Below, in pieces: positions 6,449-36,101 of a DNA stretch of 36,101 nt. Within the stretch, counting starts at the first letter, position 1; each line of letters begins with the position of its first letter. The position numbers were made by a program, and so were the translations under genes. Where the stretch lies: positions 1-36,101 of the forward strand of contig JAUCBJ010008902.1 of assembly GCA_032718475.1 (NCBI GenBank), given 5' to 3'. The DNA comes from Nemertoderma westbladi. Its lineage: Eukaryota; Animalia; Xenacoelomorpha. The notes under the pieces are model-generated. The model was given only the letters and a program-made list of their open reading frames with translations. It ran no database searches and was not told the origin of the DNA.

Positions 6449-6947
6449 GTGCTACGGTTTCTATGGAGACGCGTAAGTCAGAATTGGTCTCCTCTATGGT
6501 CAGGATTTGCGGTAGGTTTCCTGTGCGTGTTCGGACTTTGTTGCCTTGTCGTCACACCCCGTAAACCGTATTGGATTCTCCGGGTAGCGCAAGGCCTAGC
6601 CCTACGACCGAAATCTAAACTAGTTCTCGTAGTTAGAACCGATTTGAACATGGGGAAAGGCGAAGTCGCCTCTCGATGCTCCCACGCAGCCTTGAATTGT
6701 ATAGTTGGCATTGGCAACCGGGTAATCGTAAACCCCAGGAAGATAAATGAATGTAGTCCTCGCGGTATAGGATATCACGGAAATGCGACGGTTACATATC
6801 CATGCTAAATCATTAAGTATCAATACTTATATTATTCGGGGTGCCGATAGGACGACGGGAGAACACGGTACCGAAACTGTCATCGGAATTGGTCCGGGTC
6901 CAGTAGAACTTGTCGATAAGGTAACCGGTCATCTTAAATTATATTAG
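6449..6947 (+). pseudogene. PTRH2: Peptidyl-tRNA hydrolase 2 (PTH2/Bit1) pseudogene
   Basis: N-terminal hydrophobic anchor and KLVLVVRTDLNMGKGEVASRCSHAA. After a frameshift near 6752 it reads VVLAV*DITEM...AKSLSINTYIIRGADRTT...TVIGIGPGPVELVDKVTGHLKLY* (stop 6945-6947). In-frame TAG at 6768-6770; AATAAA at 6970-6975. Confidence 0.85.
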
Positions 6948-7908: not shown

Positions 7909-8562
7909 TTAATAGTTTATAATCGTTAGTGGACTTATATCGCCGTATCCCAACCGTTCATAAAGAACTCGAATCCTCGAACATAACTCATCCCAGTCCA
8001 TGTACCCCCCCTCCAGATGACGCTTATCTGTTGGATCCTTTATCGCACTTTTACCGTGGGTCACACGGTTGTTGTCGACTAACACTATTTCCCCGGGTGA
8101 CAGTTTATACTTAATGGCGAAATCGTCGCTGTTAATGAGTCCACTGAGCAATTGAATCGCACGGTAATATTCTTTGACCCCTCCAATATCCACATCCACA
8201 ATATTACCTCTGATGTGATCATTCCATCTGAATTGAATAACATCCCCGGTTGAATTAAACTCAATTACTTTTTGTCGACGTACAAACTTGAATTCATTGA
8301 TAACTTCTTCAAATCCGTAATCGTGGTAAGTGAAATAGACTTCCGAAAGTAACTTATAGGCATCGTTATCTGTTTCCTTGATGTGATTAATGACTGAGAA
8401 TCCATCGGCGAATATGTTGTCACCTCCCCCGTCGGCCTTTGCGTTTTGTATACAATGCAACATAAATATACCGGGGTTCATCTTCACTGAGATAATGTCG
8501 TTGTGTTGGGGGAGTAAGGCTGGTGTATAGGCTAGATTGGACGGTTGAGCTTTGGATTGAAC
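7909..8562 (-). CDS. BBOX1: Terminal exon of a gamma-butyrobetaine dioxygenase/TMLH-like (TauD-family Fe/2OG) gene
   Basis: Acceptor tttctttcaacag|GTT at 8562, then 654 nt to the stop. Motifs SNLAYT, HND (HxD), PGIFMLHC, DGF, LSPGEIVLVDNNRVTHG, RHLEGGYMDWD. The symbol is a family-level call; orthology is not established. Confidence 0.85.
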   Translation of the reverse strand, partial: VQSKAQPSNLAYTPALLPQHNDIISVKMNPGIFMLHCIQNAKADGGGDNIFADGFSVINHIKETDNDAYKLLSEVYFTYHDYGFEEVINEFKFVRRQKVIEFNSTGDVIQFRWNDHIRGNIVDVDIGGVKEYYRAIQLLSGLINSDDFAIKYKLSPGEIVLVDNNRVTHGKSAIKDPTDKRHLEGGYMDWDELCSRIRVLYERLGYGDISPLTIINY

Positions 8563-9124
8563 CTGTTGAAAGAAACACAATGAAATAATATACTGCGGGC
8601 GTAGTAGTAAAAAAGATCGCCAGTGAGAGCAACAATGTCCTTTTTGATAATATGTGAAATTGCATTTTCTCGGATTGAGTTCGAAAAGATTCTAACTACT
8701 GTACATCAGACAGGTCCTATCAGAATTCATTTGCAAATCAACAGCAATTGCAATAAGACTGATGGAAGAAAATTTGAACTGAAGCAACATTAAGTCTACT
8801 AGTGCTGCATGTTCTTTACTATTAATGTTTATTGTATTATATATACCTGAAATAATTATACAGTATCTACTAGATGGTGGTGCTTGCGTACCGCGAAAGA
8901 AGCTCTCTACAGTAGTTTCAGACGACTGTTCAACTATCCGTGTCTTTCGTTCAAGTTACACTCAAAATAATGCATATACATCAATAATGTTTATCACATA
9001 ATGACTATGTTAAGAGTTAATGAACAGAAGGCGGCATATAATTATTGACCTTTCAATAAGTTTACTATATTATTATAACACCGTTACGACTTCTTACTGT
9101 AAAAGTATTCACTATCTATATATA

Positions 9125-15468: not shown

Positions 15469-15636
15469 GTATTTACAATTATTTTATACATTGATTTCAT
15501 TTACTATTAATACACTTTGTAAAAAGTAGCACTTTTTAGAGGTCGGCCAGAGTGTGTTTATTATCTGAACGAAGCGAGTGTTATAAAATGTCATAACGCT
15601 ATAAAGTGCATCTTTCTTATAAGTATGTTTGTAATT

Positions 15637-15779
15637 TTCTCCAATTATATCAACTTTATACATAGAAACTTGTTTGCACTTAACTTGAAATTGTGAATCC
15701 CGGCATAACCAAGAAAGTTCAACTTTTTGATCCTATAACAATTTTTCTAGAACTGTACAAAGTTGATATAATTAGAGAA
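15637..15779. repeat. Fold-back inverted repeat, 26-bp arms (24/26 match)
   Basis: TTCTCCAATTATATCAACTTTATACA (15637-15662) versus TGTACAAAGTTGATATAATTAGAGAA (15754-15779). Confidence 0.85.
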
Positions 15780-15797
15780 TTAGAGAAAAACACTTAA

Positions 15798-16771
15798 GGC
15801 CCCGGTAGCACTACTTCAATAATTTTTTTCAAAAATTTTTTTAATTTCATCTAGAGCAGATTTATCAAGATTCCAAATTTGAAAACCGCTTAGCAAGATC
15901 TGTCCTATTTCTCGAGATATTGCTGTCTGTCCGTTTTACTGTCGGTTTGTCCGTCAGTATGTCTGTCCGTCAATAAAAAACATACGATTTGTCTAATAAA
16001 ATTCCCTGTGTGGGTTTTCGTGGTCGGTGACTTCATTTCTGATGTCATTAATCAAATTTGCCCTCGTCGGTTCTGTCTGTATGCCTGTCAGTCTGTCTGT
16101 CAAAATATAACCTATTTTTAGCATGGTTTATGCTTTCTTGTTGATACCTATATATTGACAAACTTTCTCACATATTAACAGACAATTTTTGCGCGGGAAG
16201 GTTCAAATTTTAAAGGCAATTATCTCGGAATTGTTTTTTTTGCATAAAAATAGCTTCAGACAATTCAATTTTCAATAAATTTTCAAAAATTTTGCTCAGA
16301 GGGGTTCTCTGATGTGCTCTCTCTTCAGATATCTCGATCTCGAATTCTGATTGTTTTATTCCAATAAGGAAATAATTGGCCAAAATTGAATAAAATATTT
16401 ATAATTTTTAATTTGTCAAAATTAAACAATAAACAAAACAAAAAACAGCACCAAAATGATAATTGTTAATTAATTTTTGAAATTTTGCTTCGAGATATCG
16501 AAAGAGCATACATTTTTGATGCGATTTGAAAAATTAGAAAGGAAAATACTCAAGATTGAATCTGATGAAGGTTTTTGGATTTTTATCCAAAAATTTGTCA
16601 ATATTTGTTAATATTTTTTCAAATTTTTGAAAAATTTGAATTTTTTATTTTTATTCATAATTACAAATCTTCCATTGACCTTCATACCAAGTTATGGTCG
16701 TTTCTGACAATGAGAAGTTGCTCTAACAAGGCAATATAAAAATCATGTCCATGTAGCGCTACCGCGGGGCC
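15798..16771. mobile_element. Non-autonomous TIR DNA transposon with TTAA target duplication (Kolobok-like)
   Basis: TTAA|GGCCCGGTAGCACTAC ... GTAGCGCTACCGCGGGGCC|TTAA. TTAA at 15794-15797 and 16772-16775. Purine (GG) termini fit Kolobok better than piggyBac (CC). No long ORF inside. Confidence 0.8.
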
Positions 16772-16944
16772 TTAAAATAATACCTAGACCAACGTATCGT
16801 ATGTTTTCATTTTTATGTATTTACTGTAGTACTAAAGAATTTAACTTGCTTAGTACCCAATCCTACTTGATATGTTCATGCAATCATATGTATTCAAAAA
16901 TATACATTACATACGGATACGGATTACACAGGATTACGTTGTAC

Positions 16945-17050
16945 CTGATTCATACCGGGGACAATTGCATGAATACACAACGACAAACCGGGGACGATTA
17001 ACAATCCGGGGACGTCCCCGGAGTGAATTGGTAGCTAAAATGCAATCTAC
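16945..17050 (+). repeat. Dispersed ~105-bp repeat, copy 2, with the same 18-bp palindrome (17005-17022)
   Basis: Direct repeat of 9202-9309. Confidence 0.9.
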
Positions 17051-17888
17051 ATCAACATCATTTTTTCTCCATAATCAGTATGAAATAAATGAATCGCTTA
17101 TTAAAATATAAATTTTAGAAACGAAATAATACATGTATTGTTTTCTTCTTATATATTAAGAAAATCAGAATTATAGCATTTAACTATATTATCGACTGTA
17201 TTAATGTTACGAACATCATGTAGTCAATAATATACTATTATTAGGCACTACATACTGCGAAATTAAATAAATGTTTCTTAGGTTTAGTTAATTATTTATT
17301 TCAAGTTCATTGGTTATTTTGATTATTATCACAAATAGCAATAAAAATATTAAAATATTTAGTTAAAATTGGTAGCAAAATGAAATCTACGTATTGTTTC
17401 CTCACATCAAAATCATATTGCCGAGTTAGTTACGAATACAAGGGTTTGAAGATTATGGCTGCCCATTGAACCCTTTCTATTTCTCAAGAATATTCCAGAA
17501 CATTATTTGTTATCCAATCACATATCGTCTGACACGGCAGCACATTGTTAAATGTTTAACATTGGGTAGAGTTAATGATTGTGTAAACTCTACCTGAAAT
17601 GTGCTCAATCACACTGGGGACCGGGTCGTGATTGGAGAAAAACTTAAACACACCAGTGAAATGTGTATGTTTGAGGACCCCAGTTCAACCTATGAGTAAC
17701 AAATTAGCAATCTTTAGAGTTGATAAATTTTGAATCAATAGAATGACGTAAAATGGTCTCCTGAGTCTATCGGTGCCAAAATAATTTAATTTGAACCAAG
17801 AATAAAGAAGTTATAAGGGAATCAATATCGACCCCAGAACCGACCGATAGAAATAACGGTCCCCAGAATGGGGGTTGTACAAAGAGGG

Positions 17889-18039
17889 GTGTATGTATGT
17901 ATGTATGTATGTATGTATGTATGTATGTATGTATGTATGTATGTATGTATGTATGTATGTATGTATGTATGTATGTATGTATGTATGTATGTATGTATGT
18001 ATGTATGTATGTATGTATGTATGTATGTATGTATGTATG
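17889..18039 (+). repeat. (TATG)n microsatellite, ~37 units
   Basis: Read directly; followed by GGGTGAACTCCTCCGAA. Confidence 0.97.
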
Positions 18040-18374
18040 CGTATCTATCTATATCGGGTGAACTCCTCCGAAGCTATAGCTCGTCCGTCAATGAAAGTTA
18101 TATCAATCGACGCAGCTCAAACCTAGGAAGTAGAAAAAAGGTTACGAAAAAAATTATTAAAGTGTCTTTTTTTATTTCGAAAAATAGCCCCATAACACGA
18201 AAATTGCCATAGACTCAATGATAGCACCAGCTGCTGGTGCTCCTGAGGGCATAGTAAGCCACTACTATTGATTGAATGGATAGGCCCAAACTGCAGAGAA
18301 TTATATTTTACTTGCCAAGTTTTTTACTCTATCCCAGACAAGTAATCTAATATAAGCTGTTAGAAAGTAATGTA

Positions 18375-18508
18375 TTATCCCGCCAGCTGAATAGTTCTTC
18401 CCAGTGTGCCAACTAATAGTATATTATTGTAGTATACTAACTACTACGCCTACACAAATTGGAAATGTTTTATCCCGCCAGCTGAATAGCTCTTCCCAGT
18501 GTGCCAAC
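18375..18508 (+). repeat. 39-bp direct repeat, two copies 95 bp apart, one mismatch
   Basis: TTATCCCGCCAGCTGAATAG(T/C)TCTTCCCAGTGTGCCAAC at 18375-18413 and 18470-18508. Confidence 0.9.
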
Positions 18509-18646
18509 AAACTACAGTAATAGTTTTATTATTGTACAGTAGTATATAGTAGGCCTATACATGATATTGTAGCAGTAGTATGATATACTTGTACACTGCG
18601 TCATGGTCACCCGTAGCCCATCATTACCATCATTACCATCCATTTT

Positions 18647-18822
18647 CTAGTACTGCAGCCAATCAGAAGCCACCATTTCAACCTTTACCAGTGGTCGTTA
18701 TTATTTCAACCAATCAGATGTCAGCATTTCATCCGTAACCACTGCAACTTCTCAAGTTCCCGCATCTTCCGCTAGAGGCGTTATTAGTCACCCAACTCTA
18801 GTACTGCATCCAATCATAAGCC
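18647..18822 (+). promoter_or_regulatory. Cluster of three CCAAT boxes (putative Pol II promoter)
   Basis: AGCCAATCAG (~18657), AACCAATCAG (~18708), ATCCAATCAT (~18808). The first and third lie in a duplicated CTAGTACTGCA.CCAATCA.AAGCC context. Confidence 0.5.
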
Positions 18823-19095
18823 TTTATTTTACAGGTGTTCGGGTGTCTACACTTAGCATCAGGTAACTTCTACTATTTTTCAAATCGTTATTTTTCAGCA
18901 ACCAGTATTTTCATATTCAGCAACCTTTATTTTACAGACGCTAGAGGTGTCTACAGGTAACTTCTACTATTTTTCAAATCGCAATTTTTATATTCACTAA
19001 CCTTTATCTTCCAGGTGTTCGAGTGTCTACACTTAGCATCAGGTAACTTCTACTATTTTTCACCAGTAACTAAATTTAATTTTGCAATTTTTCAG
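18821..19095 (+). repeat. Triplicated acceptor/micro-exon/donor unit
   Basis: cctttat.tt.cag|exon|gtaacttctactatttttca three times. Exons 18835-18862 (28 nt), 18938-18956 (19 nt), 19015-19042 (28 nt). Confidence 0.65.
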
Positions 19096-19615
19096 ATAAC
19101 AAAATATTCAACCGGATTCGAACTCGGGACTGATACATCCCCTCATAACTCACCAATCACTCTTCCATCCAATCTCGAGAGAAAAAGGTGATAAATATCT
19201 GAGTTATACCATAGTCATTGAATTCTTCATCTTCATCACTGGTAGCAGATGTTTATAAATAGCATCTAATCCCTTAACATAATTAATATAGCATAGAATA
19301 CATTAATTCGACTATTAATAATAATCGATTTTTTTATCGATGTAACCGATCGATCAACTAAGTTGAATATAAGTTAGAATAATAGGACTAGCATTGTTCT
19401 CGTTGCATCTGTTACTCGTTACTGCTATTTCACTCTCTAACTCACGCTAATGTAATAATTTTAGCTGTACACGTTGTTGCATCTGTTACACGAATCTACT
19501 ATATTCCTCACTGTAAGTCGCTCTGCTGTATTAAAGCAACCATATAAACCGAAGTTTTACAATCTAATAATCATTTATTTAGTTTTTATTTTTCAAAATA
19601 GTTTTCATTCTAATT

Positions 19616-20164
19616 ATGGATTTATTTAAAAAAACTTCAAGCAATACTTGGAAATTTACATTTAATAAATATACCTGTAGTATTGTTTATGGCAAGTACT
19701 TTATATTACTCTCATGCGATAGCAATGTAACAACGTGCTTCTCTTACCTGGATACACTCTACCTTCTAGACGTCTTAGAAATATTATTCAACCGACAAAA
19801 GGAATCACCAGTTTCAAGAGGTAATATTTATCCTAATATAGAATTTACAAGAGGAAAGTTAAATATTTCCACCTGTGTTATTACTGAAAACGTATATATT
19901 CAGAAGCAAGGCAAATGTCAAATTCTAAACAAATCACTCATTAATTTATTGCTTCAGAGTAAGACAGAAATATTAGAATTGTTATCACCACCACTCGAAA
20001 TAATAAATCAGTGTTCTGTTGTTAATTTAACCAACTCATCTTTTGTTGGTTTTGTAAGCAAATATAAAGGAACGACTTATATGGGACTATGGGAGATTTC
20101 AGCTAGATATTCTGATGCTATTGGTCTTAGGTATTATAATGGGTTTAACTTAACTAAACTGTGA
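19616..20164 (+). CDS. 182-aa hypothetical protein with a C-terminal PC4/whirly-like ssDNA-binding motif
   Basis: ATG-started ORF that is long for AT-rich DNA. FVSKYKGTTYMGLWE...GFNLT resembles PC4 VSVRDFKGKVLIDIRE...KGISL. The similarity is by eye only. Confidence 0.5.
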   Translation: MDLFKKTSSNTWKFTFNKYTCSIVYGKYFILLSCDSNVTTCFSYLDTLYLLDVLEILFNRQKESPVSRGNIYPNIEFTRGKLNISTCVITENVYIQKQGKCQILNKSLINLLLQSKTEILELLSPPLEIINQCSVVNLTNSSFVGFVSKYKGTTYMGLWEISARYSDAIGLRYYNGFNLTKL

Positions 20165-20165
20165 T

Positions 20166-21147
20166 TTCTAACGCTGATTGGTGTGTTATTGAAGTGTGCC
20201 TAAGATTACGAATGCTTAGATAGGCGCTCTTTTCCTTTGATTGATTTCTATTTCTTAGTTACAATAATTAGTTATTGATTAGGTCAAAGTAATACGGCAA
20301 ATTAGGCTATTACTAGCGAAACCTGTTGCGTGATAAATTAGAATTACGTATTCTGGAACTCTTAGTAATTAGTACGCTGTTAAATATTTGTGACTGTAAC
20401 TAATTAGTAAAAATTAAGAATTAGTACGCAGCATAGCGGAGAGTAGCTAAGGTAATAATTAGTGTACTGTAAACTATTCACGCTGAGCGGTTATTTGCAT
20501 TAGCGGGCAATCAGCTAGAACGCACTATTCGGTACGCACGATACGCTAGTAATTTTGCTGGCCTAAAGCCAGTCGCGGGCAGTTTTAGACTCGGGTGGTA
20601 TTACCCACGTAGAAACAGATACTGTACCATTTTGATATTTTAAATATTCTCGCATTCACACATTACGTTAGGGAACCTCCAGTATTCGCGATTAGAAAGA
20701 CGTAGGTAATAGCGTGCTTTAATAGTGATAAAATTAGGCGTAAGAATACTCTGAGTGCAAGGCCTCTCGCACTCGTCTTAAGTAAGCTTAGGGAGCCGAC
20801 TCGGGTTTATTGTTTTGGTTATTCCCGCGTGGCTCATAGATTCGAACAGTTAGCTCTCTATCGAGCGATCGGTAGAGAAAGGAACAAGCGATTTTGCAGG
20901 AGTTGTGTAAAATTAGTAAAATATATTAGTGGACGGCAGATTAGCGCCATCTAACGGTAAGTAGCGGTTCTGTATTTAGCAACCCTTACAATTTAGTAAT
21001 AGCACGCTCCTGATCCCCTTTACTTAACAGTAGAGCAGTCTTTGTGTCTTATTGGTTAGGCGAGAGCTCATTAGGTTGACAGAAGGATATTAACGGGTAT
21101 TGGTCTGTTCAACAGTTCTGCTGTTAGTATAGAGGTCGCGGTTGTTT
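20166..21147 (+). ncRNA. Putative ~980-nt multi-domain structured RNA, family unassigned
   Basis: Dense nested helices whose non-Watson-Crick pairs are G-U on the + strand. Long-range closures 20166-20180/20508-20520, 20523-20540/20713-20727 and 20882-20895/21132-21147. GNRA-capped 10-bp hairpin at 20855-20878. No ORF in the track. Confidence 0.65.
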
Positions 21148-21149
21148 AT

Positions 21150-24100
21150 CAACTCCTGTTGTAGAACTGATAAACCTTGTCAACCACTCCTGTTGTAGAA
21201 CTGATAAACCTTGTCAGCCACTCCTGTTGTAGAACTGAACCTTGTCAGCCACTCCTGTTGTAGAACTGATAAACATTGTCAGCCACTCCTGTTGTAGAAC
21301 TGATAAACCTTGTCAGCCACTCCTGTTGTAAAACTGATAAATCTTGTCATCCACTCCTGTTGTAGAACTGATAAACCTTGTCAGCCACTCCTGTTGTAGA
21401 ACTGATAAACCTTGTCAGCCACTCCTGTTGTAGAACTGATAAACATTGTCAGCCACTCCTGTTGTAGAACCGATAAACCTTGTCAGCCACTCCTGTTGTG
21501 GAGCTGATAAACCTTGTCAGCGACTCCTGTTGTGGAGCTGATAAACCTTGTCAGCCACTCCTGTTGTAGAACTGATAAACCTTGTCAGCAACTCCTGTTG
21601 TAGAACTGTTAAACCTTGTAAGCCACTCCTGTTGTAGAACTGATAAACCTTGTCAACCACTCCTGTTGTAGAACTGATAAACCTTGTCAACCACTCCTGT
21701 TGTAGAACTGATAAACCTTGTAAGCCACTCCTGTTGTAGAACTGATAAACCTTGTCAACCACTCCTGTTGTAGAACTGATAAACCTTGTCAGCCACTCCT
21801 GTTGTAGAACTGAACCTTGTCAGCCACTCCTGTTGTAGAACTAATAAACCTTGTCAGCCACTCTAGTTGAAGAACTGATAAATCTTGTCAGCCACTCCTG
21901 TTGTAGAACTGATAAACATTGTCAGCCACTCCTGTTGTAGAACTGATAAACCTTGTCAGCCACTCCAGTTGAAGAACTGATAAACTTTGTCAGCCACTCC
22001 AGTTGAAGAACTGATAAACTTTGTCAGCCACTCCTGTTGTAGAACTGATAAACATTGTCAGCCACTCCTGTTGCTGTTGTAGAACTGATAAACATTGTCA
22101 GCCACTCCTGTTGTAGAACTGATAAACATTGTCAGCCACTCCTGTTGCAGAACTGATGAACCTTGTCAGCCACTCCTGTTTTAGAACTGATACACCTTAT
22201 CAGCCGCTCCTGTTGTAGAACTGATAAACCTTGTCAGCCACTCCTGTTGTAGAACTGATAAACCTTGTCAGCCACTCCTGTTGTAGAACTGATAAACATT
22301 GTCAGCCACTCCTGTTGTAGAACCGATAAACCTTGTCAGCCACTCCTGTTGTAGAACTGATAAACCTTGTCAGCCACTCCTGTTGTGGAACTGATAAACC
22401 TTGTCAGCCACTCCTGTTGTAGAACTGATAAACCTTGTCAGCCACTCCTGTTGTAGAACTGTTAAACCTTGTCAGCAACTCCTGTTGTAGAACTGATAAT
22501 GCTTGTAAGCCACTCCTGTTGTAGAACTGATAAACCTTGTCAACCACTCCTGTTGTAGAACTGATAAACCTTGTCAGCCACTCCTGTTGTGGAACTGATA
22601 AACCTTGTCAGCCACTCCTGTTGTAGAACTAATAAACCTTGTCAGCCACTCCTGTTGTAGAACTGATAAACCTTGTCAGTCACTCCTGTTGTAGAACTGA
22701 TAAACATTGTCACCCACTCCTGTTGTAGAACTGATAAACTTTGTCAGCCACTCATGTTGTAGAACTGATAAACCTCGTCAGTCATTCCTGTTGTAGAACT
22801 GATAACCCTTGTCAGCCACTCCTGTTGTAGAACTGATAAACCTTGTCAGCCACTCCTGTTGTAGAAGTGATAAACTTTGTCAGCCACTCCTGTTGTAGAA
22901 CTGATGAACCTTGTCAGCCACTCCTGTTGTAGAAGTGATAAACTTTGTCAGCCACTCCTGTTGTAGAACTGATGAACCTTGTCAGTCACTCCTGTTGAAG
23001 AACTGATAAACATTGTCAGCCACTCATGTTGTAGAACTGATAAACTTTGTCAGCCACTCCTGTTGCAGAACTGATAAACCTTGTCAGTCACTCCTGTTGT
23101 AGAACTGGTAAACCTTGTCAGCCACTCCTGTTGTAGAACTGATAAACCTTGTCAGTCACTCCTGTTGTAGAACTGATAAACCTTGTCAGCCACTCCTGTT
23201 GTAGAACTGATAAACTTTGTCAGCCACTCCTGTTGTAGAACTGATAAACCTTGTCAGTCACTCCTGTTGTAGAACTGATAAACTTTGTCAGCCACTCCTG
23301 TTGTAGAACTGATAAACTTTGTCAGCCACTCCTGTTGTGGAACTGATAAACATTGTCAGCCACTCCTGTTGTAGAATTGACAAACCATATCAGCCACTCT
23401 AGTTGTAGAACTGATAAACCATGTCAGCCACTCCTGTTGTAGAACTGATAAACTTTGTCAGCCACTCCTGTTGTAGAACTGACAAACCTTGTCAGCCACT
23501 CATGTTGTAGAACTGATAAACATTGTCAGCCACTCCTGTTGTAGAAATAATAAACCTTGTCAGCCACTCCTGTTGTAGAACTGACAAACCATATCAGCCA
23601 CTCTAGTTGTAGAACTGATAAACCATGTCAGCCACTCCTGTTGTAGAACTAATAAACTTTGTCAGCCACTCCTGTTGTAGAACTGATAAACCTTGTCAGC
23701 CACTCCTGTTGTAGAACTGATAAACCTTGTCAGCCACTCCTGTTGTAGAACTGATAAACTTTGTCAGTCACTCCTGTTGTAGAACTGATAAACCTTGTCA
23801 GCCACTCCTGTTGTAGAACTGATAAACTTTGTCAGCCACTCCTGTTGTAGAACTGATAAACCTTGTCAGTTACTCCTGTTGTAGAACTGATAAACTTTGT
23901 CAGCCACTCCTGTTGTAGAACTGATAAACCTTGTCAGCCACTCCAGTTGAAGAACTGATAAACCTTATCAGCCACTCCAGTTGTAGAACTGATAAACCTT
24001 GACAGCCACTCCTGTTGTAGAACTGATAAACCTTGTCAGCCACTCCTGTTGTAGAACTGATAAACCTTGTCAGCCGCTCCAGTTGTAGAACTGATAAACC

Positions 24101-27100
24101 TTGTCAGCCACTCCTGTTGTAGAACTGATAAACCTTGTCAGCCACTCCTGTTGTAGAACTGATAAACATTGTCAGCCACTCCTGTTGTAGAACCGATAAA
24201 CCTTGTCAGCCACTCCTGTTGTAGAACTGATAAACCTTGTCAGCCACTCCTGTTGTGGAACTGATAAACCTTGTTAGCCACTCCTGTTGTAGAACTGATA
24301 AACCTTGTCAGCCACTCCTGTTGTAGAACTGTTAAACCTTGTCAGCAACTCCTGTTGTAGAACTGATAATGCTTGTAAGCCACTCCTGTTGTAGAACTGA
24401 TAAACCTTGTCAACCACTCCTGTTGTAGAACTGATAAACCTTGTCAGCCACTCCTGTTGTGGAACTGATAAACCTTGTCAGCCACTCCTGTTGTAGAACT
24501 AATAAACCTTGTCAGCCACTCCTGTTGTAGAACTGATAAACCTTGTCAGTCACTCCTGTTGTAGAACTGATAAACATTGTCACCCACTCCTGTTGTAGAA
24601 CTGATAAACTTTGTCAGCCACTCATGTTGTAGAACTGATAAACCTCGTCAGTCATTCCTGTTGTAGAACTGATAACCCTTGTCAGCCACTCCTGTTGTAG
24701 AACTGATAAACCTTGTCAGCCACTCCTGTTGTAGAAGTGATAAACTTTGTCAGCCACTCCTGTTGTAGAACTGATGAACCTTGTCAGCCACTCCTGTTGT
24801 AGAAGTGATAAACTTTGTCAGCCACTCCTGTTGTAGAACTGATGAACCTTGTCAGTCACTCCTGTTGAAGAACTGATAAACATTGTCAGCCACTCCTGTT
24901 GTAGAACTGATAAACTTTGTCAGCCACTCCTGTTGTAGAACTGATAAACCTTGTCAGTCACTCCTGTTGTAGAACTGGTAAACCTTGTCAGCCACTCCTG
25001 TTGTAGAACTGATAAACCTTGTCAGTCACTCCTGTTGTAGAACTGATAAACCTTGTCAGCCACTCCTGTTGTAGAACTGATAAACTTTGTCAGCCACTCC
25101 TGTTGTAGAACTGATAAACCTTGTCAGTCACTCCTGTTGTAGAACTGATAAACTTTGTCAGCCACTCCTGTTGTAGAACTGATAAACTTTGTCAGCCACT
25201 CCTGTTGTGGAACTGATAAACATTGTCAGCCACTCCTGTTGTAGAATTGACAAACCATATCAGCCACTCTAGTTGTAGAACTGATAAACTGTCAGCCACT
25301 CCTGTTGTAGAACTGATAAACCTTGTCAGTCACTCCTGTTGTAGAACTGATAAACTTTGTCAGCCACTCCTGTTGTAGAACTGATAAACTTTGTCAGCCA
25401 CTCCTGTTGTGGAACTGATAAACATTGTCAGCCACTCCTGTTGTAGAATTGACAAACCATATCAGCCACTCTAGTTGTAGAACTGATAAACCATGTCAGC
25501 CACTCCTGTTGTAGAACTGATAAACTTTGTCAGCCACTCCTGTTGTAGAACTGACAAACCTTGTCAGCCACTCATGTTGTAGAACTGATAAACATTGTCA
25601 GCCACTCCTGTTGTAGAAATAATAAACCTTGTCAGCCACTCCTGTTGTAGAACTGACAAACCATATCAGCCACTCTAGTTGTAGAACTGATAAACCATGT
25701 CAGCCACTCCTGTTGTAGAACTAATAAACTTTGTCAGCCACTCCTGTTGTAGAACTGATAAACCTTGTCAGCCACTCCTGTTGTAGAACTGATAAACCTT
25801 GTCAGCCACTCCTGTTGTAGAACTGATAAACTTTGTCAGTCACTCCTGTTGTAGAACTGATAAACCTTGTCAGCCACTCCTGTTGTAGAACTGATAAACT
25901 TTGTCAGCCACTTCTGTTGTAGAACTGATAAACCTTGTCAGTTACTCCTGTTGTAGAACTGATAAACTTTGTCAGCCACTCCTGTTGTAGAACTGATAAA
26001 CCTTGTCAGCCACTCCAGTTGTAGAACTGATAAACCTTATCAGCCACTCCAGTTGTAGAACTGATAAACCTTGACAGCCACTCCTGTTGTAGAACTGATA
26101 AACCTTGTCAGCCACTCCTGTTGTAGAACTGATAAACCTTGTCAGCCGCTCCAGTTGTAGAACTGATAAACCTTGTCAGCCACTCCTGTTGTAGAACTGA
26201 TAAACCTTGTCAACCACTCCTGTTGTATAACTCATAAACTTTGTCAGTCACTCCTGTTGTAGAAGTGTTAAACCTTGTCAGCCACTCCTGTTGTAGAACT
26301 GATAAACGTTGTCCGCCACTCCTGTTGTAGAACTGATAAACCTTGTCACCCACTCCAGTTTTAGAACTGATAAACCTTGTCAGCCACTCCAGTTGTAGAA
26401 CTGAAAAACCTTGACAGCCACTCCTGTTGTAGAACTGATAAACCTTGTCAGCCACTCCTGTTGTAGAACTGATAAACCTTGTCAGCCACTCCAGTTGAGA
26501 ACTGATAAACTTTGTCAGCCACTCCTGTTGTAGAACTGATAAACCTTGTCAGCCACTCCAGTTTTAGAACTGATAAACCTTGTCAGCCACTCCAGTTGTA
26601 GAACTGAAAAACCTTGACAGCCACTCCTGTTGTAGAACTGATAAACCTTGTCAGCCACTCCTGTTGTAGAACTGATAAACCTTGTCAGCCACTCCAGTTG
26701 AGAACTGATAAACCTTGTCAGCCACTCCTGTTGTAGAACTGATAAACATTGTCAGCCACTCCTGTTGTAGAACTGATAAACCTTGTCAGCCACTCCTGTT
26801 GTAGAACTGAAAAAGCTTGTCAACAACTCCTGTTGTAGAACTGATAAACCTTGTCAGTCACTCTTGTTGTAGAACTGATAAACCTTGTCAGCCACTCCTG
26901 TTGTAGAACTGATAAAGCTTGTCAACCACTCCTGTTGTAGAACTGATAAACCTTGTCAGCCATTCCTGTTGTAGAACTGATAAACCTTGTCAATCACTCT
27001 TGTTGTAGAACTGATAAAATTAGTCAGTCACTCCTGTTGTAGAAGTGTTAAACCTTGTCAGTCACTCCTGTTGTAGAACTGGTAAACCTTGTCAGCCACT

Positions 27101-30100
27101 CCTGTTGTAGAACTGATAAACCTTGTCAGTCACTCCTGTTGTAGAACTGATAAACCTTGTCAGCCACTCCTGTTGTAGAACTGATAAACTTTGTCAGCCA
27201 CTCCTGTTGTAGAACTGATAAACCTTGTCAGTCACTCCTGTTGTAGAACTGATAAACTTTGTCAGCCACTCCTGTTGTAGAACTGATAAACTTTGTCAGC
27301 CACTCCTGTTGTGGAACTGATAAACATTGTCAGCCACTCCTGTTGTAGAATTGACAAACCATATCAGCCACTCTAGTTGTAGAACTGATAAACCATGTCA
27401 GCCACTCCTGTTGTAGAACTGATAAACTTTGTCAGCCACTCCTGTTGTAGAACTGACAAACCTTGTCAGCCACTCATGTTGTAGAACTGATAAACATTGT
27501 CAGCCACTCCTGTTGTAGAAATAATAAACCTTGTCAGCCACTCCTGTTGTAGAACTGACAAACCATATCAGCCACTCTAGTTGTAGAACTGATAAACCAT
27601 GTCAGCCACTCCTGTTGTAGAACTAATAAACTTTGTCAGCCACTCCTGTTGTAGAACTGATAAACCTTGTCAGCCACTCCTGTTGTAGAACTGATAAACC
27701 TTGTCAGCCACTCCTGTTGTAGAACTGATAAACTTTGTCAGTCACTCCTGTTGTAGAACTGATAAACCTTGTCAGCCACTCCTGTTGTAGAACTGATAAA
27801 CTTTGTCAGCCACTCCTGTTGTAGAACTGATAAACCTTGTCAGTTACTCCTGTTGTAGAACTGATAAACTTTGTCAGCCACTCCTGTTGTAGAACTGATA
27901 AACCTTGTCAGCCACTCCAGTTGTAGAACTGATAAACCTTATCAGCCACTCCAGTTGTAGAACTGATAAACCTTGACAGCCACTCCTGTTGTAGAACTGA
28001 TAAACCTTGTCAGCCACTCCTGTTGTAGAACTGATAAACCTTGTCAGCCGCTCCAGTTGTAGAACTGATAAACCTTGTCAGCCACTCCTGTTGTAGAACT
28101 GATAAACCTTGTCAACCACTCCTGTTGTATAACTGATAAACTTTGTCAGTCACTCCTGTTGTAGAAGTGTTAAACCTTGTCAGCCACTCCTGTTGTAGAA
28201 CTGATAAACGTTGTCCGCCACTCCTGTTGTAGAACTGATAAACCTTGTCACCCACTCCAGTTTTAGAACTGATAAACCTTGTCAGCCACTCCAGTTGTAG
28301 AACTGAAAAACCTTGACAGCCACTCCTGTTGTAGAACTGATAAACCTTGTCAGCCACTCCTGTTGTAGAACTGATAAACCTTGTCAGCCACTCCAGTTGA
28401 GAACTGATAAACTTTGTCAGCCACTCCTGTTGTAGAACTGATAAACCTTGTCAGCCACTCCAGTTTTAGAACTGATAAACCTTGTCAGCCACTCCAGTTG
28501 TAGAACTGAAAAACCTTGACAGCCACTCCTGTTGTAGAACTGATAAACCTTGTCAGCCACTCCTGTTGTAGAACTGATAAACCTTGTCAGCCATTCCAGT
28601 TGAGAACTGATAAACCTTGTCAGCCACTCCTGTTGTAGAACTGATAAACATTGTCAGCCACTCCTGTTGTAGAACTGATAAACCTTGTCAGCCACTCCTG
28701 TTGTAGAACTGAAAAAGCTTGTCAACAACTCCTGTTGTAGAACTGATAAACCTTGTCAGTCACTCCTGTTGTAGAACTGATAAACCTTGTCAGCCACTCC
28801 TGTTGTAGAACTGATAAAGCTTGTCAACCACTCCTGTTGTAGAACTGATAAACCTTGTCAGCCATTCCTGTTGTAGAACTGATAAACCTTGTCAATCACT
28901 CTTGTTGTAGAACTGATAAACTTAGTCAGTCACTCCTGTTGTAGAAGTGTTAAACCTTGTCAGCCACTCTTGTTGTAGAACTGATAAACCTTGTCAGCCA
29001 CTCCTGTTGTAGAACTGATAAAGCTTGTCAACCACTCCTGTTGTAGAACTGATAAACCTTGTCAGCCATTCCTGTTGTAGAACTGATAAACCTTGTCAGC
29101 CACTCCTGTTGTAGAACTGATAAACATTGTCAGCCACTCCTGTTTTAGAACTGATAAACCTTGTCAGCCACTCCTGTTGTAGAACTGATAAACCTTGTCA
29201 GCCACTCCTGTTGTAGAACTGATAAATCTTGTCAGCCACTCCTGTTGTAGAACTGATAAACCTTGTCAGCCACTCCTGTTGTAGAACTTTTAAACCTGGT
29301 CAGCAACTCCTGTTGTAGAACAGATAAACCTTGTCAGCCACTCCTTTTGTAGAACTGATAAACCTTGTCAGCCACTCCAGTTGAGAAATGATAAACTTTG
29401 TCAGCCACTCTTGTTGTAGAACTGATAAAACTTGTCAGCCACTCCTGTTGTAGAACTGATAAACATTGTCAGCCACTCCTGTTGTAGAACTGATAAACCT
29501 TGTCAGCCACTCCTGTTGTAGAACTGTTAAAGCTTGTCAACCACTCCTGTTGTAGAACTGATAAACCTTGTCAGCCATTCCTGTTGTAGAACTGATAAAC
29601 CTTGTTAGCCACTCCTGTTGTAGAACTGATAAACATTGTCAGCCACTCCTGTTTTAGAACTGATAAACCACGTCAGCCACTCCTGTTGTAGAACTGATAA
29701 ACCTTGTCAGCCACTCCTGTTGTAGAACTGATAAATCTTGTCAGCCACTCCTGTTGTAGAACTGATAAACCTTGTCAGCCACTCCTGTTGTAGAACTGAT
29801 AAACTTTGTCAGCCACTCCTGTTGTAGAACTGATAAACATTGTCAGCCACTCCTGTTGTAGAACTGACAAACCATATCAGCCACTCTAGTTGTAGAACTG
29901 ATAAACCATGTCAGCCACTCCTGTTGTAGAACTAATAAACTTTGTCAGCCACTCCTGTTGTAGAACTGATAAACCTTGTCAGCCACTCCTGTTGTAGAAC
30001 TGATAAACCTTGTCAGCCACTCCTGTTGTAGAACTGATAAACTTTGTCAGTCACTCCTGTTGTAGAACTGATAAACCTTGTCAGCCACTCCTGTTGTAGA

Positions 30101-33100
30101 ACTGATAAACTTTGTCAGCCACTCCTGTTGTAGAACTGATAAACCTTGTCAGTTACTCCTGTTGTAGAACTGATAAACTTTGTCAGCCACTCCTGTTGTA
30201 GAACTGATAAACCTTGTCAGCCACTCCAGTTGTAGAACTGATAAACCTTATCAGCCACTCCAGTTGTAGAACTGATAAACCTTGACAGCCACTCCTGTTG
30301 TAGAACTGATAAACCTTGTCAGCCACTCCTGTTGTAGAACTGATAAACCTTGTCAGCCGCTCCAGTTGTAGAACTGATAAACCTTGTCAGCCACTCCTGT
30401 TGTAGAACTGATAAACCTTGTCAACCACTCCTGTTGTATAACTGATAAACTTTGTCAGTCACTCCTGTTGTAGAAGTGTTAAACCTTGTCAGCCACTCCT
30501 GTTGTAGAACTGATAAACTTTGTCCGCCACTCCTGTTGTAGAACTGATAAACCTTGTCACCCACTCCAGTTTTAGAACTGATAAACCTTGTCAGCCACTC
30601 CAGTTGTAGAACTGAAAAACCTTGACAGTAACTCCTGTTGTAGAACTGATAAACCGTGTCAGCCACTCCTGTTGTAGAACTGATAAACCTTGTCAGCCAC
30701 TCCAGTTGAGAACTGATAAACTTTGTCAGCCACTCCTGTTGTAGAACTGATAAACCTTGTCAGCCACTCCAGTTTTAGAACTGATAAACCTTGTCAGCCA
30801 CTCCAGTTGTAGAACTGAAAAACCTTGACAGCCACTCCTGTTGTAGAACTGATAAACCTTGTCAGCCACTCCTGTTGTAGAACTGATAAACTTTGTCAGT
30901 CACTCCTGTTGTAGAACTGATAAACCTTGTCAGCCACTCCTGTTGTAGAACTGATAAACTTTGTCAGCCACTCCTGTTGTAGAACTGATAAACCTTGTCA
31001 GTTACTCCTGTTGTAGAACTGATAAACTTTGTCAGCCACTCCTGTTGTAGAACTGATAAACCTTGTCAGCCACTCCAGTTGTAGAACTGATAAACCTTAT
31101 CAGCCACTCCAGTTGTAGAACTGATAAACCTTGACAGCCACTCCTGTTGTAGAACTGATAAACCTTGTCAGCCACTCCTGTTGTAGAACTGATAAACCTT
31201 GTCAGCCGCTCCAGTTGTAGAACTGATAAACCTTGTCAGCCACTCCTGTTGTAGAACTGATAAACCTTGTCAACCACTCCTGTTGTATAACTCATAAACT
31301 TTGTCAGTCACTCCTGTTGTAGAAGTGTTAAACCTTGTCAGCCACTCCTGTTGTAGAACTGATAAACGTTGTCCGCCACTCCTGTTGTAGAACTGATAAA
31401 CCTTGTCACCCACTCCAGTTTTAGAACTGATAAACCTTGTCAGCCACTCCAGTTGTAGAACTGAAAAACCTTGACAGCCACTCCTGTTGTAGAACTGATA
31501 AACCTTGTCAGCCACTCCTGTTGTAGAACTGATAAACCTTGTCAGCCACTCCAGTTGAGAACTGATAAACTTTGTCAGCCACTCCTGTTGTAGAACTGAT
31601 AAACCTTGTCAGCCACTCCAGTTTTAGAACTGATAAACCTTGTCAGCCACTCCAGTTGTAGAACTGAAAAACCTTGACAGCCACTCCTGTTGTAGAACTG
31701 ATAAACCTTGTCAGCCACTCCTGTTGTAGAACTGATAAACCTTGTCAGCCACTCCAGTTGAGAACTGATAAACCTTGTCAGCCACTCCTGTTGTAGAACT
31801 GATAAACATTGTCAGCCACTCCTGTTGTAGAACTGATAAACCTTGTCAGCCACTCCTGTTGTAGAACTGAAAAAGCTTGTCAACAACTCCTGTTGTAGAA
31901 CTGATAAACCTTGTCAGTCACTCTTGTTGTAGAACTGATAAACCTTGTCAGCCACTCCTGTTGTAGAACTGATAAAGCTTGTCAACCACTCCTGTTGTAG
32001 AACTGATAAACCTTGTCAGCCATTCCTGTTGTAGAACTGATACACCTTGTCAATCACTCTTGTTGTAGAACTGATAAAATTAGTCAGTCACTCCTGTTGT
32101 AGAAGTGTTAAACCTTGTCAGTCACTCCTGTTGTAGAACTGGTAAACCTTGTCAGCCACTCCTGTTGTAGAACTGATAAACCTTGTCAGTCACTCCTGTT
32201 GTAGAACTGATAAACCTTGTCAGCCACTCCTGTTGTAGAACTGATAAACTTTGTCAGCCACTCCTGTTGTAGAACTGATAAACCTTGTCAGTCACTCCTG
32301 TTGTAGAACTGATAAACTTTGTCAGCCACTCCTGTTGTAGAACTGATAAACTTTGTCAGCCACTCCTGTTGTGGAACTGATAAACATTGTCAGCCACTCC
32401 TGTTGTAGAATTGACAAACCATATCAGCCACTCTAGTTGTAGAACTGATAAACCATGTCAGCCACTCCTGTTGTAGAACTGATAAACTTTGTCAGCCACT
32501 CCTGTTGTAGAACTGACAAACCTTGTCAGTCACTCATGTTGTAGAACTGATAAACATTGTCAGCCACTCCTGTTGTAGAAATAATAAACCTTGTCAGCCA
32601 CTCCTGTTGTAGAACTGACAAACCATATCAGCCACTCTAGTTGTAGAACTGATAAACCATGTCAGCCACTCCTGTTGTAGAACTAATAAACTTTGTCAGC
32701 CACTCCTGTTGTAGAACTGATAAACCTTGTCAGCCACTCCTGTTGTAGAACTGATAAACTTTGTCAGCCACTCCTGTTGTAGAACTGATAAACCTTGTCA
32801 GTTACTCCTGTTGTAGAACTGATAAACTTTGTCAGCCACTCCTGTTGTAGAACTGATAAACCTTGTCAGCCACTCCAGTTGTAGAACTGATAAACCTTAT
32901 CAGCCACTCCAGTTGTAGAACTGATAAACCTTGACAGCCACTCCTGTTGTAGAACTGATAAACCTTGTCAGCCACTCCTGTTGTAGAACTGATAAACCTT
33001 GTCAGCCGCTCCAGTTGTAGAACTGATAAACCTTGTCAGCCACTCCTGTTGTAGAACTGATAAACCTTGTCAACCACTCCTGTTGTATAACTCATAAACT

Positions 33101-36100
33101 TTGTCAGTCACTCCTGTTGTAGAAGTGTTAAACCTTGTCAGCCACTCCTGTTGTAGAACTGATAAACGTTGTCCGCCACTCCTGTTGTAGAACTGATAAA
33201 CCTTGTCACCCACTCCAGTTTTAGAACTGATAAACCTTGTCAGCCACTCCAGTTGTAGAACTGAAAAACCTTGACAGCCACTCCTGTTGTAGAACTGATA
33301 AACCTTGTCAGCCACTCCTGTTGTAGAACTGATAAACCTTGTCAGCCACTCCAGTTGAGAACTGATAAACTTTGTCAGCCACTCCTGTTGTAGAACTGAT
33401 AAACCTTGTCAGCCACTCCAGTTTTAGAACTGATAAACCTTGTCAGCCACTCCAGTTGTAGAACTGAAAAACCTTGACAGCCACTCCTGTTGTAGAACTG
33501 ATAAACCTTGTCAGCCACTCCTGTTGTAGAACTGATAAACCTTGTCAGCCACTCCAGTTGAGAACTGATAAACCTTGTCAGCCACTCCTGTTGTAGAACT
33601 GATAAACATTGTCAGCCACTCCTGTTGTAGAACTGATAAACCTTGTCAGCCACTCCTGTTGTAGAACTGAAAAAGCTTGTCAACAACTCCTGTTGTAGAA
33701 CTGATAAACCTTGTCAGTCACTCTTGTTGTAGAACTGATAAACCTTGTCAGCCACTCCTGTTGTAGAACTGATAAAGCTTGTCAACCACTCCTGTTGTAG
33801 AACTGATAAACCTTGTCAGCCATTCCTGTTGTAGAACTGATAAACCTTGTCAATCACTCTTGTTGTAGAACTGATAAAATTAGTCAGTCACTCCTGTTGT
33901 AGAAGTGTTAAACCTTGTCAGTCACTCCTGTTGTAGAACTGGTAAACCTTGTCAGCCACTCCTGTTGTAGAACTGATAAACCTTGTCAGTCACTCCTGTT
34001 GTAGAACTGATAAACCTTGTCAGCCACTCCTGTTGTAGAACTGATAAACTTTGTCAGCCACTCCTGTTGTAGAACTGATAAACCTTGTCAGTCACTCCTG
34101 TTGTAGAACTGATAAACTTTGTCAGCCACTCCTGTTGTAGAACTGATAAACTTTGTCAGCCACTCCTGTTGTGGAACTGATAAACATTGTCAGCCACTCC
34201 TGTTGTAGAATTGACAAACCATATCAGCCACTCTAGTTGTAGAACTGATAAACCATGTCAGCCACTCCTGTTGTAGAACTGATAAACTTTGTCAGCCACT
34301 CCTGTTGTAGAACTGACAAACCTTGTCAGCCACTCATGTTGTAGAACTGATAAACATTGTCAGCCACTCCTGTTGTAGAAATAATAAACCTTGTCAGCCA
34401 CTCCTGTTGTAGAACTGACAAACCATATCAGCCACTCTAGTTGTAGAACTGATAAACCATGTCAGCCACTCCTGTTGTAGAACTAATAAACTTTGTCAGC
34501 CACTCCTGTTGTAGAACTGATAAACCTTGTCAGCCACTCCTGTTGTAGAACTGATAAACCTTGTCAGCCACTCCTGTTGTAGAACTGATAAACTTTGTCA
34601 GTCACTCCTGTTGTAGAACTGATAAACCTTGTCAGCCACTCCTGTTGTAGAACTGATAAACTTTGTCAGCCACTCCTGTTGTAGAACTGATAAACCTTGT
34701 CAGTTACTCCTGTTGTAGAACTGATAAACTTTGTCAGCCACTCCTGTTGTAGAACTGATAAACCTTGTCAGCCACTCCAGTTGTAGAACTGATAAACCTT
34801 ATCAGCCACTCCAGTTGTAGAACTGATAAACCTTGACAGCCACTCCTGTTGTAGAACTGATAAACCTTGTCAGCCACTCCTGTTGTAGAACTGATAAACC
34901 TTGTCAGCCGCTCCAGTTGTAGAACTGATAAACCTTGTCAGCCACTCCTGTTGTAGAACTGATAAACCTTGTCAACCACTCCTGTTGTATAACTGATAAA
35001 CTTTGTCAGTCACTCCTGTTGTAGAAGTGTTAAACCTTGTCAGCCACTCCTGTTGTAGAACTGATAAACGTTGTCCGCCACTCCTGTTGTAGAACTGATA
35101 AACCTTGTCACCCACTCCAGTTTTAGAACTGATAAACCTTGTCAGCCACTCCAGTTGTAGAACTGAAAAACCTTGACAGCCACTCCTGTTGTAGAACTGA
35201 TAAACCTTGTCAGCCACTCCTGTTGTAGAACTGATAAACCTTGTCAGCCACTCCAGTTGAGAACTGATAAACTTTGTCAGCCACTCCTGTTGTAGAACTG
35301 ATAAACCTTGTCAGCCACTCCAGTTTTAGAACTGATAAACCTTGTCAGCCACTCCAGTTGTAGAACTGAAAAACCTTGACAGCCACTCCTGTTGTAGAAC
35401 TGATAAACCTTGTCAGCCACTCCTGTTGTAGAACTGATAAACCTTGTCAGCCATTCCAGTTGAGAACTGATAAACCTTGTCAGCCACTCCTGTTGTAGAA
35501 CTGATAAACATTGTCAGCCACTCCTGTTGTAGAACTGATAAACCTTGTCAGCCACTCCTGTTGTAGAACTGAAAAAGCTTGTCAACAACTCCTGTTGTAG
35601 AACTGATAAACCTTGTCAGTCACTCCTGTTGTAGAACTGATAAACCTTGTCAGCCACTCCTGTTGTAGAACTGATAAAGCTTGTCAACCACTCCTGTTGT
35701 AGAACTGATAAACCTTGTCAGCCATTCCTGTTGTAGAACTGATAAACCTTGTCAATCACTCTTGTTGTAGAACTGATAAACTTAGTCAGTCACTCCTGTT
35801 GTAGAAGTGTTAAACCTTGTCAGCCACTCTTGTTGTAGAACTGATAAACCTTGTCAGCCACTCCTGTTGTAGAACTGATAAAGCTTGTCAACCACTCCTG
35901 TTGTAGAACTGATAAACCTTGTCAGCCATTCCTGTTGTAGAACTGATAAACCTTGTCAGCCACTCCTGTTGTAGAACTGATAAACATTGTCAGCCACTCC
36001 TGTTTTAGAACTGATAAACCTTGTCAGCCACTCCTGTTGTAGAACTGATAAACCTTGTCAGCCACTCCTGTTGTAGAACTGATAAATCTTGTCAGCCACT

Positions 36101-36101
36101 C
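21150..36101. repeat. 34-bp satellite, ~440 copies in the window, consensus GTCAGCCACTCCTGTTGTAGAACTGATAAACCTT, continuing past the window end
   Basis: Unit counted directly; head-to-tail, no spacers, highly homogeneous. Confidence 0.99.

What the first reader, a model, noticed from the sequence alone, without database searches (positions are those of the whole stretch)
20166..21147. ~1-kb highly structured RNA-like element of unknown family
Seen: nearly the whole segment pairs by eye. Domain 1 is closed by TTCTA-ac-GCTGATTG (20166-20180) with CAATCAGC-TAGAA (20508-20520). It contains GTGCCTA/TAGGCGC (20196/20221), CTTTGATT/GGTCAAAG (20235/20282) enclosing CAATAA/TTATTG, TAATTAGT/ACTAATTA (20366/20399), and CGCTGA-GCGG/TTGC-A-TTAGCG (20481-20505). 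Domain 2 is closed by CACTATT/AATAGTG (20523/20721) and GCACG/CGTGC (20536/20713). Next come a three-tier stem TTAGGC-TAAGA-GAGTGC/GCACTC-TCTTA-GCTTAG (20734-20791), GAGCC-CGGG/CCCG-GGCTC (20793-20835), and a 10-bp hairpin with a GCGA (GNRA) loop (20855-20878). The last domain is closed by GAACAA-GCGATTTT/GAGGTCGC-gg-TTGTTT (20882/21132-21147) and contains CAGGAGT/GCTCCTG and GTTGA-CAGA/TCTG-T-TCAAC. Wobbles read as G-U on the + strand, which points to RNA-level rather than DNA-level selection. I found no rRNA, group I P7, group II domain V, RNase P, hammerhead or telomerase-template signature. Inference: a large, possibly undescribed ncRNA or cis-acting RNA, comparable in size to GOLLD/ROOL-type RNAs but in an animal-like mobile-element setting.
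Basis: partly seen in the sequence, partly recalled or inferred. Interest (0 to 1): 0.92.

Follow-up and report, generated by a model that had tools for sequence, protein, structure and literature searches.

The report
Folded transposon end that spawned satellite
The flagged kilobase is the non-coding, partly folded end of a repeated, probably mobile, DNA element of unknown class in an animal genome, and the 15-kb satellite next to it has a 34-base unit pieced together from short mirror-image copies of that end, so it likely records how a satellite was born.

Summary
No Rfam family matches.

Sequencing runs show the segment is the 3' end of a many-copy element, about 150-fold deeper than a unique stretch in one run. 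This copy has an internal deletion at 20154/20155, and other copies end at about 21151 in unrelated flanks. One divergent copy keeps the GCGA hairpin through two double-sided changes. Variants within the family give mixed support.

Exact reverse-complement patches from the last 270 bases cover 28 of the 34 bases of the adjacent satellite's first unit (0/970 background windows, 0/20000 shuffles), and the unit matches this copy's rare allele. Best reading: a cis-acting terminal fold of an unclassified mobile element, whose free end once snapped back, was extended in patches and was then amplified. Expression, element class and enzyme are not shown.

The parts
18580..19615 (+). 5' part of the many-copy element; left boundary approximate. 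CCAAT boxes and repeated acceptor / mini-exon / donor-like units suggest a Pol II promoter and spliced leader (inferred)
   Evidence: Depth rises in the bin 18590-18697; CCAAT at 18659, 18710, 18810; CAG|GTAACT at 18863, 18957, 19043; acceptor-like sites at 18834, 18937, 19014, 19095; direct repeats
19616..20164 (+). 182-codon ORF, cut short in this copy; predicted repeats of beta-strands plus a helix; PC4/Pur-like resemblance is a lead only
   Evidence: other copies run on differently behind 20154; no homologue; models pLDDT 40 and 66; Pur-alpha Z 5.1, rmsd 2.8, 50 aligned, tied with unrelated sheets
20154..20155 (.). Internal deletion junction of this copy
   Evidence: Loose ends behind 20154 in runs X1, X3, X4 and before 20155-20159 in X1, X3, X4
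20155..21151 (+). Non-coding 3'-terminal region of the element (the flagged segment), partly folded
   Evidence: two X4 contigs leave the window at 21151 and 21155 into non-satellite flanks
20793..20835 (+). Two-tier stem with U-rich loop
   Evidence: Pair probability 0.99; variant 20826 C>T keeps pairing as G-U
20855..20878 (+). 10-bp hairpin with GCGA loop; the best-supported helix
   Evidence: Pair probability 0.99; a divergent X4 contig differs at 5 stem positions, giving two double-sided changes and one G-U to A-U change with the loop kept (loose end behind 20857, compared by eye)
20882..21151 (+). Last domain; holds all template patches for the satellite unit (20897-20903, 21074-21081, 21110-21115, 21113-21119, 21144-21151)
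   Evidence: z -3.07; patches
21152..36101 (+). Satellite array, 440 units of 34 bp, running to the window's end, with higher-order repeats; unit is a reverse-complement patchwork of the last domain

Best explanation
The segment is the non-coding 3' end of a many-copy, likely mobile element of unknown class, and its 3' half likely folds as a single strand that would serve as the end signal for the element's own copying machinery. Shown: many copies, an internal deletion in this copy, an end near 21151, one hairpin kept by double-sided change, and a satellite unit built of reverse-complement patches of the last domain. Inferred: at this one copy a free 3' end of the + strand folded back on the last domain and was extended in five short patches (snap-back synthesis, by a host repair polymerase of the Pol theta type or by the element's own enzyme); the 34-mer was then duplicated and expanded by ordinary DNA-level amplification. 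Whether the folded strand is RNA or single-stranded DNA is open; G-U pairs and GNRA loops on the + strand lean towards RNA.
For: Many copies: ORF contig depth 5288 and a single contig in the folded part at 6208, against 34.9 for a zero-difference contig at 18271-18431 in run X3 (rough, as depth is no copy number); 3516 and 1635 contigs laid in X1 and X3. Defined end: two X4 contigs leave at 21151 and 21155. Fold: hairpin 20855-20878 with 5 of 20 stem positions changed and all pairs kept (chance that five changes include two whole pairs is 720/15504 = 0.046, hand count); last domain z -3.07. Satellite link: 28/34 bases covered by exact patches of >=7 nt, 31/34 at >=6 nt; 0/970 background windows and 0/20000 (2/20000 at 6 nt) shuffles reach this; same-strand cover is 0 at 7 nt. 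Local origin: position 21079 is A here but G in nearly all laid depth (X1 141108 of 143034; X3 and X4 all), and the matching satellite position is T in 405 and C in 0 of 424 full-length units. The first unit carries the perfectly matching variant at unit position 32, while 385 of 424 units carry G. The window's array alone would give 92,000-174,000 summed depth in X3 by simulation (scaled by 35) against 63,000-67,000 seen, so the satellite appears rare beside the element. Higher-order repeats show DNA-level expansion. Short complementary tracts from snap-back synthesis, median insertion 7 bp, are described for Pol theta (PMC4912351, passages).
Against: The thermodynamic signal is modest and present on both strands. 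Of 40 listed family variants (of 70), 9 break, 14 keep and 17 miss predicted pairs; the null gives 13.6 breaks, P about 0.06. Covariation rests on one hairpin in one contig, and strand-switching in a near-palindrome can also produce double-sided change. No polymerase, transposase or terminal repeat was seen in this copy, so mobility and the role of the fold are inferred. The farthest patch lies 254 nt from the end, unit position 11 is a G:T mismatch to its template, and the unit-to-unit junction has no clear microhomology. Run X4 shows the element at depth of only about 80, which does not fit 150 copies unless coverage is low. One X4 copy goes on for four letters like the satellite before leaving (end 21155), so the first patch may recur in other copies or be part of the true end.
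Confidence: 0.5

Rival explanations
1. The region is simply the end or 3' untranslated part of a repeat and folds no more than a G+U-rich sequence does; only a few local hairpins are real. The satellite's patchwork origin holds independently.
For: z only -2.3 and similar on the other strand; 200-nt windows unremarkable; domain 2 z +0.45; 2 of 66 background windows beat the last domain; variants 3 kept, 3 broken in the named helices.
Against: Double-sided changes around a kept GCGA loop; fewer variants in the named helices than expected (6 against 10.5, P 0.064); three of four domains at z -2.2 to -3.1.
Confidence: 0.25
2. Telomerase-like system: an element-encoded reverse transcriptase uses the folded last domain as a multi-segment template and adds the 34-nt repeat again and again to a DNA end.
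For: The unit is complementary to the + strand, is joined to the element's 3' end, and the second unit restarts at the same base. Three of the five patches stop at the edge of a predicted helix (read by eye). The array runs to the window's end.
Against: No contiguous template: the longest match with <=2 mismatches in the non-array window is an unrelated 15-mer at 6078. Patch order along the strand is not monotonic. Unit variants are inherited in higher-order blocks rather than reset by a template. The satellite is rare beside the element, and other copies end without it. No RT seen in this copy.
Confidence: 0.07
3. The last domain is a guide-RNA scaffold of the Fanzor/TnpB type that abuts the element's right end and takes its guide from the variable flank.
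For: A fold that ends at the element's right end, with variable flanks, is the layout described for Fanzor (PMC10432273, passages).
Against: The described scaffold is 75 nt, against 270-1000 nt here; no Rfam match; no RuvC-type ORF in this copy, although the middle is deleted.
Confidence: 0.08
4. A stand-alone large non-coding RNA gene or host gene family carried within the repeat, with its own function unrelated to mobility.
For: Non-coding, about 1 kb, GNRA loops, G-U pairs on +; letters upstream of the deletion in other copies also look hairpin-like (by eye).
Against: No separate promoter or 5' end identified; depth follows that of the ORF; no match to the Rfam models or to phage and plasmid DNA.
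Confidence: 0.1

Closest known systems
Templated (snap-back) insertions of polymerase theta-mediated end joining (PMC4912351, passages read)
   Same: A 3' end extended by short tracts complementary to nearby sequence of the same strand; patch lengths of 6-9 nt.
   Different: Here the patchwork became the unit of a 440-copy satellite, nearly all of it templated, with templates up to 254 nt away inside a predicted fold. The enzyme is not identified.
Transposon-derived satellites, including composite monomers (review PMC12628747, passages read)
   Same: A satellite arising from, and adjacent to, a mobile element, then expanding by DNA-level mechanisms.
   Different: The mechanisms in the passages read repeat a same-strand piece of an element or join remnants of several. 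Here the monomer is a new sequence of reverse-complement patches from one copy. 'Reverse complement' and 'snap-back' occur 0 times in that review.
Terminons and other Penelope-like elements (PMC6431247, passages; PMC11167929, abstract)
   Same: A 3'-terminal fold followed by a short stretch complementary to a tandem repeat; possibly retained introns (recalled feature).
   Different: No hammerhead found, no terminal repeat, no RT in this copy. The array lies on the opposite strand from what target-primed attachment would give (inferred).
Telomerase RNA and DRT10 ncRNA (PMC12632851, abstract and one results section read)
   Same: A structured strand that is complementary to a tandem repeat.
   Different: They use one contiguous A-B-A' template in a loop; here five scattered patches lie mostly in predicted helices.
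Fanzor omega RNA (PMC10432273, passages read)
   Same: A fold at the right end of a eukaryotic mobile element, with variable flank.
   Different: Far larger here; no nuclease seen.
GOLLD, ROOL and other large bacterial ncRNAs
   Same: Size and multi-domain appearance.
   Different: No Rfam match at E<=10; animal setting; weak folding signal.

Membership tests
Any Rfam 15 family (rRNA, group I/II intron, RNase P/MRP, telomerase, GOLLD, ROOL, HEARO, hammerhead) | Covariance-model match | tested here: not met
   0 matches at gathering score in the window; 2 chance-level matches at E 1.3 and 9.7 in 19900-21400
Telomerase / DRT10-type template RNA | Contiguous template of at least one repeat with A-B-A' realignment | tested here: not met
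   No match of 15 nt or more with <=2 mismatches in the element; the part deleted in this copy could not be examined
Telomerase / DRT10-type template RNA | Associated reverse transcriptase | tested here: inconclusive
   None in this internally deleted copy; the only RT in the window belongs to the Bel/Pao element at 2-5253
Penelope-like element / Terminon | Hammerhead ribozyme at the 3' end | tested here: not met
   No Rfam match; no core motif on either strand (motif recalled)
Penelope-like element / Terminon | Terminal (pseudo-LTR) repeat and RT/GIY-YIG ORF | tested here: inconclusive
   No 5'-3' repeat in this copy; middle deleted
Fanzor / TnpB guide scaffold | Fold abutting the right end with variable flank | tested here: met
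   Ends at 21151 and 21155 into different flanks, 2 contigs of one run
Fanzor / TnpB guide scaffold | RuvC nuclease ORF upstream | tested here: inconclusive
   No Pfam match for the remaining ORF; middle deleted
Fanzor / TnpB guide scaffold | Small RNA reading into the flank | not testable with these tools
   No raw RNA reads were available
LTR, DIRS or TIR transposon | Long terminal direct or inverted repeats and target-site duplication | tested here: inconclusive
   No long terminal repeat; only a 7-of-8 inverted match between 18581-18588 and 21144-21151; left boundary uncertain
Polymerase theta-type templated insertion | Short tracts complementary to nearby sequence of the same strand | tested here: met
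   Five patches, 28-31 of 34 bases; allele match to this copy
Polymerase theta-type templated insertion | Dependence on Pol theta | not testable with these tools
   A historical event; enzyme cannot be read from sequence
PC4 / Pur-repeat single-strand-binding proteins (ORF) | Fold or profile match | tested here: inconclusive
   No Pfam match; Pur-alpha Z 5.1, rmsd 2.8, 50 aligned, tied with unrelated folds; low-confidence models

The most novel reading that the evidence does not exclude
An undescribed class of animal mobile element carries a kilobase-scale folded RNA at its 3' end whose last domain acts as a discontinuous, structure-guided template: the element's own polymerase hops between helices to write a new 34-nt repeat onto a DNA end, a telomerase-like way of making satellites or capping ends.
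Probability: 0.07. Interest if true: 0.95.

Novelty: new variant of a known kind. Interest (0 to 1): 0.58.

Why it matters
How a satellite monomer first arises is rarely visible. Here the template of each piece lies next to the array and can be tied to this copy by a rare allele, so a snap-back origin becomes a testable model that can be sought genome-wide. The element itself, with an orphan ORF, promoter-like leader and a large folded end, matched nothing searched and may be an unclassified family; a real kilobase fold in an animal mobile element would be unusual. If the fold proves to be chance, the satellite result still stands.

Tried and rejected
No whole genome is held. No RNA holder listed for the stretch. 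Run X5, whose RNA label is a guess, has low-depth contigs over about 19350-21059 and none over the promoter-like part or the satellite; this is not used as evidence. Runs X8 and X10 (other organisms) had 0 contigs laid, no proof of absence.

DNA patterns: 0 hits in viral contigs, metagenomes and prokaryote genomes. Looser hairpin patterns gave 7 and 19 hits, all judged chance: arms not complementary and no flanking similarity. blastn against phages and plasmids found nothing.

ORF: no relatives by word search, near or longer, by phmmer over 1.84 billion representatives, in viral or genome contigs, PDB sequences, Pfam, or the Atlas (best 0.76); PHROGs gave one hit at E 0.11; Foldseek had no hit at E<=0.001; the putative repeats do not align to each other.

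Recalled motifs for hammerhead, group I, group II domain V and a TTAGGG template were absent on +. A pseudoknot from the U-rich loop had no standout partner. rRNA and mitochondrial origin were considered and dropped for lack of any Rfam signal. Earlier scan findings: none on this genome or this sequence; word hits concern other systems. Literature searches (listings only unless stated) showed no description of this element or of a satellite monomer made of reverse-complement patches; one search timed out. No supplements were read.

Full report
Setting. The window looks like animal nuclear DNA (inferred): Bel/Pao retrotransposon frames at 2-5253, PTH2 and TauD fragments, a 33-bp minisatellite, microsatellites and a 34-bp array of 440 units at 21152-36101. 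The flagged segment lies between a 182-codon ORF (19616-20164) and that array. No whole genome is held.

Observation. All 21 named helices are present with 130 canonical pairs, 14 of them G-U. The signal above chance is modest: z -2.29 on + (0/57 shuffles as good) and -1.73 on - (3/67); with 20 shuffles both strands gave about -2.5. Domain scores are -2.55, +0.45, -2.19 and -3.07, with boundaries chosen by eye beforehand. Two of 66 background values beat the last 300 nt. In the whole-segment ensemble 10 of 21 helices have probability <=0.01, among them the closures of domains 1 and 2, and 5 have >=0.93, all 3' of 20750. The domain 1 closure does form when that domain is folded alone. Rfam has no match, and the segment is non-coding.

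What it belongs to. Six runs of four studies hold the stretch or part of it; the best may be the window's own source. Laid contigs show about 18590-21151 as a many-copy element: in X3 one ORF contig has depth 5288 and one contig in the folded part 6208, against 34.9 for a zero-difference contig just upstream. That is about 150-fold, a rough figure; X4 shows only about 80 and may be low in coverage. Other copies continue differently behind 20154 and before 20155-20159, so this copy has an internal deletion that cuts the ORF and probably the 5' part of the folded region. Two X4 contigs leave the window at 21151 and 21155 into non-satellite DNA (12 of 73 loose-end rows were shown). The 5' part has CCAAT boxes and three acceptor / mini-exon / donor-like units; no long terminal repeat was found. 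The ORF has no detectable relative; a PC4/Pur-like fold is my recalled lead and the fold search is inconclusive.

Is the fold selected? For: a divergent X4 contig carries the 20855-20878 hairpin with five stem changes, A-U to G-C, C-G to U-A and U-G to U-A, and the same GCGA loop (hand-counted chance 0.046 for two whole pairs among five changes). RNA rather than single-stranded DNA is inferred, not shown.

The satellite link. The longest reverse-complement matches to the satellite in 15400-21151 (9, 8 and 8 nt) all lie in the last 255 nt. Exact patches cover 28 of 34 bases of the first unit at >=7 nt and 31 at >=6 nt; 0 of 970 background windows and 0 of 20000 shuffles reach the former. Templates are 20897-20903, 21110-21115, 21113-21119, 21144-21151 and 21074-21081, in that order along the unit. 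The patch at 21074-21081 spans 21079, which is A here and G in nearly all other laid depth; the satellite has the base complementary to A in 405 of 424 full-length units and that complementary to G in none. A simulation indicates that this one array could account for all satellite depth in X3. Higher-order repeats show later expansion at the DNA level.

Mechanism. Most likely the + strand's free 3' end folded back on the last domain and was extended in patches, then duplicated and amplified. Pol theta makes such complementary tracts by snap-back synthesis (PMC4912351, passages); the element's own enzyme is the alternative. The normal job of the fold is most likely an end signal for copying or packaging of the element; this step is inferred from position alone. 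A telomerase/DRT10-like programme needs a contiguous A-B-A' template (PMC12632851, results section), which is absent from this copy. Terminons pair a hammerhead with a short stretch complementary to telomeric repeats (PMC6431247, passages); no hammerhead was found and the array's strand is opposite to that expected (inferred). Fanzor scaffolds abut the right end but are 75 nt in the case read (PMC10432273, passages). PMC12440569 and PMC11167929 were seen as abstracts only; PMC12628747 as passages.

Verdict. Observation partly confirmed; interpretation partly supported. The segment is the partly folded, uncatalogued 3' end of an unclassified many-copy element, and the adjacent satellite very likely arose from it in place (about 0.85). 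Eight literature searches showed no description in their listings; subscription papers and repeat databases were not searchable. Interest 0.58; new variant of a known kind.

Noticed in passing
window 2-5253 (+): Bel/Pao LTR retrotransposon coding region in two overlapping frames (DUF1759, RT, Peptidase_A17; integrase zinc finger, DUF5641).
   Followed up: partly
window 6269-6808 (+) and 7909-8691 (-): Fragments matching PTH2 and TauD; both look intronless and incomplete, possibly processed pseudogenes.
   Followed up: no
window 10284-15299: 33-bp minisatellite of 152 copies with long open repeat frames on both strands; shares a CCACTCCT motif with the 34-bp satellite. Relationship untested.
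   Followed up: no
window 18821-19095 (+): Three repeated acceptor / mini-exon / donor-like units behind CCAAT boxes, inside the many-copy element; introns kept in a repeated element would argue against a simple LINE.
   Followed up: partly
window 18367-18576: Two copies of a 45-bp piece separated by variable TAGTA/TACTA-rich filler; other contigs show many different joints here, suggesting active filler-type repair in this genome.
   Followed up: no
window 15600-16200: Strong local folding on both strands (z about -5), a 43-nt inverted repeat and GTCY-type microsatellite blocks; looks like a small non-autonomous DNA element (recalled resemblance to Helentron/DINE-type elements).
   Followed up: no
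window 20363-20476 and 20911-21000: Recurring TAGTA motifs in predicted internal loops, including a symmetric one in the last domain's long arm; possible loop E-type motifs (recalled).
   Followed up: no
L008-L026 (16 of 19 loci): The loose hairpin pattern hit one conserved coding stretch shared by many small viral contigs; unrelated to this element.
   Followed up: partly
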